Part shown: positions 19,143 to 21,912 of the stretch, one piece after another
Layout: each line of letters starts with the position of its first letter
Numbering within the stretch: position 1 is the first letter of the stretch
Assembly (NCBI GenBank): GCA_951406725.2
Contig: OX597819.1
Span: 2,108,001 to 2,172,000 of the forward strand
Length of the DNA: 64,000 nucleotides
Direction: 5' to 3'
From: Octopus vulgaris
Lineage: Eukaryota
The notes under the pieces: model-generated
Databases searched by the model: none
The model's input: the letters and a program-made list of their open reading frames with translations, nothing else
What the model was told of the DNA's origin: nothing
Position numbers and translations under genes: made by a program

Positions 19143-21912
19143 TGTTACGACCTGGTGGCCATAACCCGAATTTACGGAATCAACAAGGATAGTGTGAACC
19201 CAAGACAACAACACACCATGACATTTTTTCTAAAATATTAACAATAGTCAGCATAAAAAACAGCTTACATACAAAACAAATATATACACGAACAAAAATC
19301 AGATGCTACACAAGATGTGCGGACAAAATATTTACAAAGGTAACATATTTATACAGTTCAGAAATTCAAACTCCGAGTCCCAGTTTTAGGTTTCACCAAA
19401 ATTGGCCTCACACAAAACCTGCCCCAACAAATTTGGATTCTAAAAATTCGGATTTCATAAAATCTGGATTTCCATTTTAGTACAAATTCGGTTTTCGAAC
19501 CTTGGATTTCGAACCTTGGACCTAAACATACATAAATATAATGTCAAAGCAACCATTTAAACTAAAAGTTCATGACACAAAACAGCTGCCAGACTACATC
19601 AATAATTATAGTTTAAAAATTAAATAGTCAAACAAAAACCTAGTTTGCTTTAAATTCACACAAAACTGCTCCATACAAGCATTAGACAAAATTTACAGTT
19701 GTCTGATACAAAAATTGGCTACATGAAAAAATTAAATTTATACACCCTTTAGTTATTTATACAATTTTTAACATTTATCTTAGCCAAATTACTACACAGC
19801 CTGCCACAAATGCAGGGTTCAAAATTCACATAAATATTATAACATAACATAACTTAAGAGATGTTTTTGTACTCACCCAGTTGTGACACAGAAATTATTT
19901 TAAATCTGGCAAAAGTTCTGGCGAATTCATGGAGCATAAAATAAATCCATAAATGCCTAATACAAAGCAAAAAGTGCATAAATTAAAGAGGCAATCATAG
20001 CTTCCAGAATCCAATTGAACAACTTTACTTTCTTTATGTTGGCACTACGGCCATAACATTGAGGGTCAGCACACGGACAGACAAAAACATTACATTGAGG
20101 TACATGAAAATACATATCGGATGAGTTATGGAAAAAAGAACTTAGAATCCTGGCTTTTCTGCCAACCTCCCAAAGTAGGTCGTTCCATTTTACTGTTTTT
20201 TGAATTACCGTCTTGTATCTTTTCCTTAACACAAAATTACAACAAATGCGGCTTTTTATCGTCAAAAAAATACAACAGCCGGCAGCTCGTCGTATCTTTA
20301 CTGAAATGGTGTTATTTCAACTCTTTTTTTCCCAAATAGTTCTACCAACCACTCCCCTTTTTCTCTCTCCAACAGCATACCTTTCTTACCTTCATGGTTT
20401 GCCATTTTCACTCTGATAATATTTTTCATTTTTATTACTCTCTTTTCAATTTCGACGCTTTTTTCATATACTATGAGGCTGCTTAAGTTTCTCCCTGAAG
20501 TATCGTTCTCTGATATCCTTTACCTCTCTCTTTGTCCGTCATAAATGTCTCTGTCTCTAATTCACTGTCTCTTTCTTTTCCTTCCTTCTTTCGTACTCCT
20601 TCTTCCTTGCTAGTTGAAGGCAACGTTTGTGCGTTCGCATTTCACTTCATTTTTCATTTGGTTTTCCATTTTTTCTCTTTTCTTTCTTATTCTCTTCTTC
20701 GTTTGTCTTTCTTCTTTTTCTCCTTGGGGCTCTTTGGTGGTGATTCTAAGTTCTTTTTTCTTTTCACCACCGTAAATAGTTCCTCCATTTTCTCTTCCTC
20801 CTCTGCTGTACTCTCTTCTTGAATTTCTTTTTCTGTTATTTCCTCCTCGCGTTTCTGGGGACACTTGGCCTTCGTGTGTCCTCTTACACCACACAAAAAG
20901 CATATTGGAGCTCTACCTTCCACAACAATCCTCAGTCTATTCTCATCCGGCAAAACCAGCTCTTCCACAATCTTATGGATGTCTGGCAGACTTATATGCA
21001 CTATCACCTCTAGCCCAGCAGTTCACCTCCGTAGTTTTGGACATTTTCAAAATTTCTGCAGCTTCCTCTGGAGAGTAGAGTATGGCTGTCAATTTCAGGG
21101 GGCACTCTACCAATTCTTACTCTGGCCACACGTTTACCACAGTAAGTAGGCAGTAGTGCCTACTCAGCTGATCTCAAGGCCACAGTGGAGTATTTCTTTC
21201 CTTCATTTTAGTTTATAAAGCGCACCTCCACCGTGCCGAATTCCCGTCTTCTGCTGCAGAACGTGGTACATTCCTTCACCTCTCTCAAACACTCACCTAA
21301 TGCTTCCGTCGCTGCTATTTCTACTTTCTTCGTAGCTAGCTATGTTTATTGTTCTGTAGATAATAGTTCTTTTCTTGGTATTCTCAATAACTTCTTTGGG
21401 TGGCGTCAGTCTAAGACAGTCTCCCTCCTTTTTCAACAAGTCGTTATACTTCTTGAAATTCTTGTCTTTATCTTCTATTTCACAGATTTGCAGTAGCTCC
21501 GCTGACAGGCTTTTGCCAGTCACTGCAGCATAATTGCCCATTTGCACTGGTCTCTTATTAATTACTTCACCCATAAATGGGGAAGACAAATAAAAATTCC
21601 AACAAATTCAACAATTCGGGAATTAACAGGTTTACAATAACAGGCTAAGAATTACAGTACCCACAGGGAGCGTACACTAACTCGAACAACACACCGATTG
21701 AACAACTTTGTCTCAGAAAAAACTGTCACAAAAAACTGGGGCGGGGTACAATTATCACTGATTATAAAGGTTTGCCAATGTCTAGCCAATTTGTTATAGT
21801 TTCATAGGTTCGGCTAATAACACCTAGCTTCCCCCATTTTAACAATGTCTGTTTGCGTGTTTAACTTAACATTTTCCGATAAAAAGTTTTTATCGCTTTT
21901 AAGTTCCCAACA
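19143..21912 (-). mobile_element. 2.77-kb solo-LTR-like unit (minus strand TGTTGGGAAC...GGTCGTAACA) containing a Tx1-type ORF1
   Basis: TG...CA ends with TGTT/AACA inverted termini; GTAT on both flanks within (GTAT)n; CCAAT x2, TATAAA-like and GC-box motifs at 21738-21790. Confidence 0.6.
20310..21574 (-). pseudogene. Frameshifted Tx1/L1-type ORF1 (zinc knuckle), no ORF2
   Basis: GNYAAV, LRLTPPKEVIENTKKRTIIY (cf. LVLHTPQHIKQEIENKTIVY in the 35001-36593 ORF), VEGRAPICFLCGVRGHTKAKC CCHC knuckle, E/K-rich tail. Confidence 0.8.

What the first reader, a model, noticed from the sequence alone, without database searches (positions are those of the whole stretch)
19143..21912. LTR-like TG...CA unit carrying only a LINE (Tx1) ORF1
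Seen: minus-strand termini TGTTGGGAAC...GGTCGTAACA, GTAT on both flanks, and promoter-type motifs. A segment at ~21697 resembles the Tx1 5' end (cggtgtgttgttcg..gctccc vs cggatgtgatgtcg..gctccg). It is followed by a zinc-knuckle ORF1 homologous to the window's Tx1 ORF1s and ~1.1 kb with no RT. LINE insertions normally lose the 5' end, not ORF2. Inference: a Gypsy-like LTR that captured a LINE ORF1 (cross-class chimera), or a HAL1-like ORF1-only element nested in a solo LTR.
Basis: partly seen in the sequence, partly recalled or inferred. Interest (0 to 1): 0.75.

Follow-up and report, generated by a model that had tools for sequence, protein, structure and literature searches.

The report
ORF1-only retroelement nested in solo LTR
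This stretch is not one hybrid element: a 1.7-kb jumping gene carrying only an RNA-binding-type gene sits inside the leftover end repeat of an unrelated retrotransposon, its copies likely hit that same spot more than once, and its wider family often lands just behind TATA boxes of other repeats, likely to borrow their promoters.

Summary
The TG…CA unit and the broken zinc-knuckle ORF1 are real, but they are two elements. Empty LTR sites outnumber filled ones 44 to 3. The one paired-LTR copy found has two empty LTRs around gag, integrase and RT. The same cargo occurs free at other targets with its own duplications.

Nine LTR copies carry the cargo. Their LTRs are not a clade (AU p = 8e-16) and span two structural LTR variants, so repeated insertion at one site fits better than a replicating chimera.

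The wider family keeps ORF1 under purifying selection, has identical young copies, and shares a 3′ stem-loop with a complete Tx1 LINE. It often inserts 20–44 bp behind a TATA box (pre-registered test: 5 of 12 vs 5 of 60 control windows), though this window's own site lies further downstream.

It works like HAL1/HeT-A with Tx1-type targeting. I did not find it in print, but this scan already noted ORF1-only, start-site-targeting families on other DNA of this genome.

The parts
21913..21916 (-). 4-bp target-site duplication of the LTR, left copy (ATAC on minus; inside a microsatellite)
   Evidence: 11 of 15 empty family members have an exact 4-bp TSD
21710..21912 (-). 5′ part of a solo LTR of a Gmr1-like Ty3/gypsy element (TGTTG… start)
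   Evidence: joins directly to the 3′ part in empty copies; family flanks gag–INT–RT in L039
21761..21768 (-). TATA-like motif TTTATAAT of the LTR (promoter function inferred, not tested)
   Evidence: sequence; about 58 nt upstream of this insertion and about 30–36 nt upstream of the L169 insertion site
21694..21709 (-). 16-bp target-site duplication of the ORF1-only element, 5′ copy
   Evidence: single copy in empty LTRs, two copies in the filled one
20027..21693 (-). 1,667-bp ORF1-only non-autonomous retroelement (Tx1-related)
   Evidence: same unit free at many other sites with its own TSDs; no ORF2
20271..21574 (-). Broken ORF1: two RRM-like domains (predicted on an intact relative), CCHC knuckle at 20896–20861, charged linker, C-terminal ~90-aa domain; stops and frame changes; 3′ end approximate
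20040..20053 (-). 3′ stem-loop (TGGC-CGTAGT-GCCA) just before the A-rich end; predicted recognition signal for a Tx1 ORF2 protein
20011..20026 (-). 16-bp target-site duplication, 3′ copy
19143..20010 (-). 3′ part of the solo LTR (long structural variant), ending …GGTCGTAACA
19139..19142 (-). 4-bp target-site duplication of the LTR, right copy (ATAC on minus)

Best explanation
A one-gene (ORF1-only) retroelement sits between 16-bp duplicated target bases inside a solo LTR of a Gmr1-like Gypsy element; it was likely copied in by target-primed reverse transcription using a complete Tx1 LINE's enzyme, and its subfamily likely hit this same LTR site several times independently. Shown: the nesting, the TSD, the empty sites, the free copies, the absence of ORF2, purifying selection on ORF1, and a 3′ stem-loop shared with Tx1 and a SINE. 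Inferred: a Tx1 ORF2 protein recognises that stem-loop in trans; each subfamily has preferred sites, many just behind a TATA box or at a SINE head; the element is transcribed from the host promoter it lands behind, which would explain why such targets are kept. The window copy is a dead fossil, about 7% diverged.
For: Nesting: the 16-mer is single in empty LTRs and doubled around the cargo; 44 empty vs 3 filled 5′ junctions and 3 filled 3′ junctions at ≤3 mismatches. Host: L039 has two empty LTRs around gag, integrase (Pfam Integrase_H2C2 E = 3.5e-19) and then RT (Ty3 RT E = 9e-5). Repeated insertion: the 8 filled LTRs with a 3′ part need 6 label changes (shuffled mean 7.4) and a single clade is rejected, AU p = 7.7e-16. 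Two filled copies carry the short LTR variant (same 454-column gap as 10 empty copies, with an 11th starting at the same base) and five the long variant. A single clade for the 9 LTR-borne cargos is also rejected, weakly (p = 0.025). L169 is a second subfamily in the same LTR with its own TSD. ORF1-only family: 29 of 30 loci matching the ORF1 C-terminal domain have the 3′ tail within 600 nt with no ORF2 between; pairwise dN/dS 0.15–0.56; identical ORF1s on three contigs. Stem-loop: the full 4-bp hairpin appears in the minimum-energy fold of 16 of 20 tails, with different paired arms among subfamilies, SINE and Tx1. TATA: 12 of 30 vs 1–3 of 30 per control window; pre-registered repeat 5 of 12 vs 5 of 60, p = 0.009.
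Against: The window's own site is about 58 nt behind the TATA motif, outside the tested 20–44 window, so it counts as a miss. 10 of 12 copies in the repeat test fall in host families already seen, so p = 0.009 overstates independence; by family it is 3 of 7 vs 0–1 of 7. Six of 9 filled copies lack the left LTR part within 13–15 kb, which simple 5′ truncation into an intact LTR does not predict. LTR and cargo have the same age (median end branches 0.067 and 0.068), which hitchhiking would also give. Both trees are star-like and no starred branch alone forces more than one origin in the trimmed LTR tree. No autonomous partner with the same tail and target was identified. 5′ 'tags' from earlier hosts were only 4 of 53 against a 2.5% null.
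Confidence: 0.85

Rival explanations
1. One insertion into an LTR of an active Gypsy lineage, after which the filled LTR was copied by LTR retrotransposition and reshuffled among LTR variants by template switching (hitchhiking; the first reader's chimera in a weak form).
For: All filled copies share the exact site; LTR and cargo are of the same age; the window copy and L033 group together without firm support (92/77, with an empty copy).
Against: AU tests reject one clade for the LTR parts (p = 7.7e-16) and for the cargos (p = 0.025). Filled copies occur in both length variants, each with empty members. No filled LTR adjoins gag/INT/RT. 9 of 18 copies of the subfamily lie at other targets.
Confidence: 0.1
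2. Target choice is set by RNA rather than protein: read-through transcripts carry the downstream target copy, which anneals to nicked DNA and re-selects the same site. The TATA association then reflects survival of lineages that landed behind promoters.
For: Subfamilies track targets (the SINE-head subfamily is one clade, 100/99). Targets share no obvious sequence motif. Copies stack in tandem at regenerated sites. PMC4494074 (passage) notes that co-transcription with the target can strengthen specificity.
Against: Different subfamilies hit the same host a few bases apart (L001 vs L169; L240 vs L293), and one subfamily uses several unrelated hosts, which suits recognition of a position. This rival concerns targeting only and is compatible with the nesting.
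Confidence: 0.4
3. The cargo is just an autonomous Tx1 copy that lost ORF2 by deletion after insertion.
For: A few loci have ORF2 pieces near ORF1 and tail (L124, L251).
Against: The ORF1-to-tail distance is nearly constant (116–218 nt in 27 of 30 loci). TSD-bounded units are 1.6–2.2 kb across subfamilies at 30–90% amino-acid identity. Tandem arrays have a ~1.79-kb period with intact ORF1 and no ORF2.
Confidence: 0.02

Closest known systems
HAL1 (half-L1), HeT-A, Ag-Sponge: ORF1-present non-autonomous LINEs (PMC5786205 and PMC5753468, passages read; the HAL1 paper PMC2923044 was not held)
   Same: Encodes only ORF1, keeps 5′ and 3′ ends, depends on an autonomous partner; forms head-to-tail arrays as HeT-A does (arrays; HeT-A arrays recalled).
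   Different: Those derive from the L1, Jockey and CR1 clades. This ORF1 is related to a Tx1 ORF1 and has an extra ~90-aa C-terminal domain absent from the window's Tx1 ORF1. It lands in other repeats across the genome, and this subfamily ends in a stem-loop plus a short A-rich end rather than poly(A).
Target-specific Tx1 families: Tx1 in Tx1D, Tx1-Mar in Mariner-N4_AMi, Tx1-8_Crp and Tx1-4_AMi in LTR retrotransposons (PMC4494074, passages and section 15 read)
   Same: Preferential insertion into another transposon, including LTR elements; the hitchhiking-versus-independent question is the one that paper tested for SINEU-3.
   Different: Those are complete LINEs or non-coding SINEs with one main target per family. 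Here a coding non-autonomous family uses many unrelated hosts, often at a fixed distance behind a TATA box.
TRE5-A of Dictyostelium (PMC5911963, passages read)
   Same: Non-LTR element placed relative to a promoter; its ORF1 protein interacts with TBP, Brf1 and Bdp1.
   Different: Autonomous; inserts 40–54 bp upstream of tRNA genes in opposite orientation. Here insertion is downstream of the TATA motif, in the same orientation as the LTR, and no protein interaction was tested.
Gmr1 clade of Ty3/gypsy (PMC8220671, passage read) for the host LTR
   Same: Integrase upstream of RT between paired TG…CA LTRs with 4-bp TSD.
   Different: RT phylogeny not run; only fragments of the coding region were examined.

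Membership tests
ORF1-present non-autonomous LINE (HAL1/HeT-A/Ag-Sponge class) | ORF1 only, no endonuclease or RT, in a repeated unit with fixed ends | tested here: met
ORF1-present non-autonomous LINE (HAL1/HeT-A/Ag-Sponge class) | Independent retrotransposition (long TSDs at dispersed sites) | tested here: met
   16-bp TSD here; 41 of 88 and 13 of 35 ORF1-plus-tail units passed the TSD score
ORF1-present non-autonomous LINE (HAL1/HeT-A/Ag-Sponge class) | ORF1 maintained as a protein | tested here: met
   pairwise dN/dS 0.15–0.56 among intact ORFs; the window copy itself is broken
ORF1-present non-autonomous LINE (HAL1/HeT-A/Ag-Sponge class) | Mobilised in trans by an autonomous partner | not testable with these tools
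   only the shared 3′ stem-loop supports it
HAL1 proper | Derived from the L1 clade | tested here: inconclusive
   ORF1 matches a Tx1-type ORF1 in the window and no L1 ORF1 Pfam family; no tree against L1 ORF1s was built
Tx1 clade | RT-domain phylogeny | not testable with these tools
Tx1 clade | Target preference (same flank in over 20% of copies, criterion of PMC4494074) | tested here: met
   9 of 18 subfamily copies in this LTR site (set partly seeded by the composite); 7 of 69 3′-end matches of all subfamilies
Gmr1-like Gypsy (host LTR) | Integrase upstream of RT between paired LTRs | tested here: met
   L039, one locus
Gmr1-like Gypsy (host LTR) | RT phylogeny | not tested
   only a 103-aa broken RT fragment was held
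Chimeric LTR element carrying ORF1 (TRIM/LARD-like cargo capture) | Cargo-bearing copies form one lineage and occur as paired LTRs with an internal region | tested here: not met

The most novel reading that the evidence does not exclude
A long-lived, still-spreading lineage of ORF1-only Tx1 derivatives homes on transcription start sites of other mobile elements (LTR TATA promoters, SINE heads), has no promoter of its own, and keeps ORF1, with its added C-terminal domain, because that protein steers a borrowed Tx1 ORF2 to the initiation complex. The window's LTR would be one of these hijacked promoters.
Probability: 0.25. Interest if true: 0.8.

Novelty: new variant of a known kind. Interest (0 to 1): 0.48.

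Why it matters
The locus itself is a dead nested insertion and removes the case for a LINE–LTR chimera. The family behind it is of more interest. ORF1-only LINE derivatives are in print for three clades (L1, Jockey, CR1); my searches found none for Tx1. This one has many subfamilies, intact young copies and different target sites, which gives a natural comparison for an open question: why a parasite that borrows ORF2 keeps its own ORF1, and whether ORF1, ORF2 or the RNA picks the site. A LINE system that inserts just behind promoters would also matter for gene regulation in this genome and as a model for position-specific integration.

Tried and rejected
Chimera: rejected.

Tx1-like 5′ end: not above chance.

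First LTR tree: contaminated with non-LTR flanks and replaced by a trimmed one; two rows under 250 nt were dropped. One cargo row under 250 nt was dropped from the cargo tree.

Left LTR parts of six 5′-truncated filled copies: not found in a further 10 kb; no TSD seen around those units (by eye).

5′ tags from earlier hosts: 4 of 53 vs a 2.5% null, weak; only anecdotal cases (L005, L015, L038).

Looser 5′-junction pattern: 6 matches, 3 of them unrelated.

Autonomous partner: none of the 69 tail matches has the ORF2 C-terminus running into the tail; L124 has ORF2 residues 83–969 ending ~850 nt before it.

Protein search with an intact ORF1: no hit at E ≤ 0.001. Atlas: no usable hit for the C-terminal domain. 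PDB sequence search: none. Its predicted fold gives only generic ferredoxin-like matches (best Z 5.2), so no function is inferred. The search of protein representatives could not be run.

Rfam found no hammerhead in hosts with a CTGATGA…GAAAC motif; only microsatellite-driven hits below threshold.

Sequencing runs: no RNA holder listed; no reads were laid, so expression and other species remain open.

Full report
**Setting.** The window lies at G000:C6:2108001–2172000 of a 2.8-Gb genome. I read it as octopus-like from its size, microsatellites and a SINE that I recognise from memory; no call named the organism. Element coordinates below run 1–2770 on the minus strand from 21912.

**Observation.** The termini, the ATAC flanks and the TATA-like motif are present. 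ORF1 is broken by stops and frame changes. It has a zinc knuckle and matches the ORF1 of the window's complete LINE at E = 2e-13; ORF2 has no match at E ≤ 1. The claimed likeness to the Tx1 5′ end is not above shuffles (p = 0.24). A self-comparison shows a 16-bp direct repeat at element 204–219 and 1887–1902.

**Two elements.** A genome search with the whole unit (40 of 614 candidates scored, 70 matches) gave three kinds of copy: cargo alone, LTR alone with 1–219 joined to 1887–2770, and both. Empty LTRs hold the 16-mer once; the window copy holds it on both sides of the cargo. Junction patterns at ≤2 mismatches found 44 empty and 3 filled sites. Free cargo copies have their own duplications at other targets, several recurring.

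**The host.** Empty copies run TGTTAGG…CGTAACA, and 11 of 15 with both ends have an exact 4-bp TSD (15 of 30 fetched, of 44 found). L039 has two empty LTRs around gag, an integrase domain and then an RT fragment. Integrase before RT is the Gmr1 arrangement (PMC8220671, passage). No filled LTR adjoins this internal region.

**One insertion or many.** Nine filled copies were found: L001, L031–L037 and L138. For the 8 with a 3′ LTR part, the tree with 30 empties needs 6 label changes (shuffled mean 7.4; 63 of 500 shuffles as low), and forcing them together costs 86.8 log-likelihood units (AU p = 7.7e-16). L036 and L138 carry the short LTR variant, whose 454-column gap recurs in 10 empty copies; L001 and L032–L035 carry the long form, also with empty members. 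In the cargo tree the window's subfamily (96/98) has 9 LTR-borne and 9 free copies in a star; one clade for the nine is rejected at p = 0.025. L169 is the same LTR with another subfamily inserted about 22 bp upstream, with its own TSD. Against this: both trees are poorly resolved, LTR recombination could move a cargo between variants, the two elements are of equal age (end branches 0.067 and 0.068), and six filled copies lack the left LTR part within 13–15 kb, which I cannot explain. With the calibration in PMC13282606 (first third of the text read; distance 0.065 ≈ 18 Myr) the age would be roughly 18–19 Myr, if the organism guess holds.

**The family.** A 25-nt 3′-end pattern gave 69 matches. 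Their 3′ flanks fall into a few recurring targets: 23 in one, 9 in another, 7 at this LTR site. An ORF1 protein search had 11,279 first-look candidates, 150 scored. Of 30 loci matching the C-terminal domain, 29 have the tail within 600 nt and none has ORF2 before it. Intact ORF1s of 436–464 aa give pairwise dN/dS of 0.15–0.56 (Nei–Gojobori, pairs not independent), and three copies on C1, C4 and C14 are identical. L374 is a head-to-tail array with a ~1.79-kb period. The predicted ORF1 matches tandem RRM proteins. Its C-terminal domain is absent from the window's Tx1 ORF1 and folds as a generic ferredoxin-like unit. A 4-bp hairpin with a C…GU loop before the A-rich end is in the minimum-energy fold of 16 of 20 tails, with arms UGGC/GCCA, AGGC/GCCU, AAGC/GCUU in subfamilies, GCCC/GGGC in the SINE and AGCC/GGCU in Tx1. 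That is the basis for inferring trans-mobilisation by Tx1.

**Where it lands.** Among 41 of 88 units with a TSD, 30 were neither in tandem nor in a SINE head; 12 of these have a TATA motif 20–44 nt upstream against 1, 1, 3, 1 and 2 in control windows (7 of 17 host families). I formed the idea after seeing some of these, so I noted the prediction and fetched 60 new loci: 35 had ORF1 plus tail, 13 a TSD, 12 were non-tandem, and 5 of 12 had the motif against 5 of 60 control windows (p = 0.009). Ten of the 12 reuse host families already seen, so independence is limited. In a young set, 6 of 9 first-in-line copies with a resolved TSD have it, from few hosts. Three other hosts begin TGTTG 83–98 bp upstream, like LTRs. 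The window's own site is about 58 nt behind the TATA motif and is a miss; the L169 site fits. No RNA data tested promoter use.

**Mechanism.** Shown: nesting, TSDs, ORF1-only structure, selection, recurrent targets. Inferred: transcription from the host promoter, binding of a Tx1 ORF2 to the 3′ stem-loop, target-primed insertion. Whether position is read by protein (as TRE5-A ORF1 binds TFIIIB subunits; PMC5911963, passages) or by read-through RNA (PMC4494074, passage) is open; I put them at about even odds.

**Literature.** ORF1-present non-autonomous LINEs are listed for Jockey, L1 and CR1 (PMC5786205, PMC5753468; passages). Tx1 families that target other transposons, including LTR elements, are known (PMC4494074; passages and section 15). 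Searches showed no Tx1-derived ORF1-only family or TATA-targeting one; I saw only listings for most hits, read no supplements, and could not search Repbase or Dfam. Earlier notes of this scan, read after my tests, describe ORF1-only and start-site-targeting families on other DNA of this genome; they agree but are not independent evidence. None matched this LTR by sequence.

**Verdict.** Not a chimera. It is a fossil of a target-selective ORF1-only retroelement in a solo Gypsy LTR: a new variant of a known kind, interest 0.48.

Noticed in passing
window 31130–36593 (−): Complete Tx1-type LINE with an intact 1,149-aa ORF2, between GATA arrays. It belongs to a very young family: all 150 scored matches to its last 199 aa are 93–100% identical, many in full-length frames.
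   Followed up: partly
L032, L034, L035, L036, L037, L138: Six of nine filled LTRs consist of the cargo 3′ part plus the right LTR part, with no left LTR within 13–15 kb and no visible TSD; four end exactly at the LTR terminus. Deletion or 3′ transduction; unexplained.
   Followed up: partly
L124 (G000:C2:88499792–88508316): ORF1, ORF2 residues 83–969, then a family-type tail about 850 nt later; a candidate autonomous relative or a nested hybrid. L251 has ORF1 followed by the ORF2 C-terminal third.
   Followed up: no
L374–L377, L379, L381, L382, L386: The youngest ORF1-only subfamilies have swapped to a SINE-type 3′ hairpin, some with poly(A); several sit directly in front of another ORF1-only subfamily, behind a TATA motif.
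   Followed up: partly
3′ flanks of L241, L344, L355, L360, L362 and others: Hosts carry a CTGATGA…GAAAC motif that resembles a hammerhead ribozyme core (recalled); Rfam did not confirm it.
   Followed up: partly
L005, L015, L038 5′ ends: Free copies begin with a short piece matching the target of another host (L038 carries TTGTTCAATTGG of this LTR site), as expected if transcription starts in the host; the systematic test was weak.
   Followed up: yes
L382 and L386 upstream flanks: Host promoter with CCAAT and TATA motifs and a heat-shock-element-like sequence (motif recalled); host not identified.
   Followed up: no
L016/L039 and L023/L040: The 5′ LTR joins the gag-bearing internal region without its last ~10 bases and without a clear primer-binding site, probably by short deletions.
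   Followed up: no
window 42387–43566 (−) and 55678–60050 (+): A broken ORF with a GIY-YIG-like motif (Penelope-type, recalled) and a second, decayed Tx1-type LINE.
   Followed up: no
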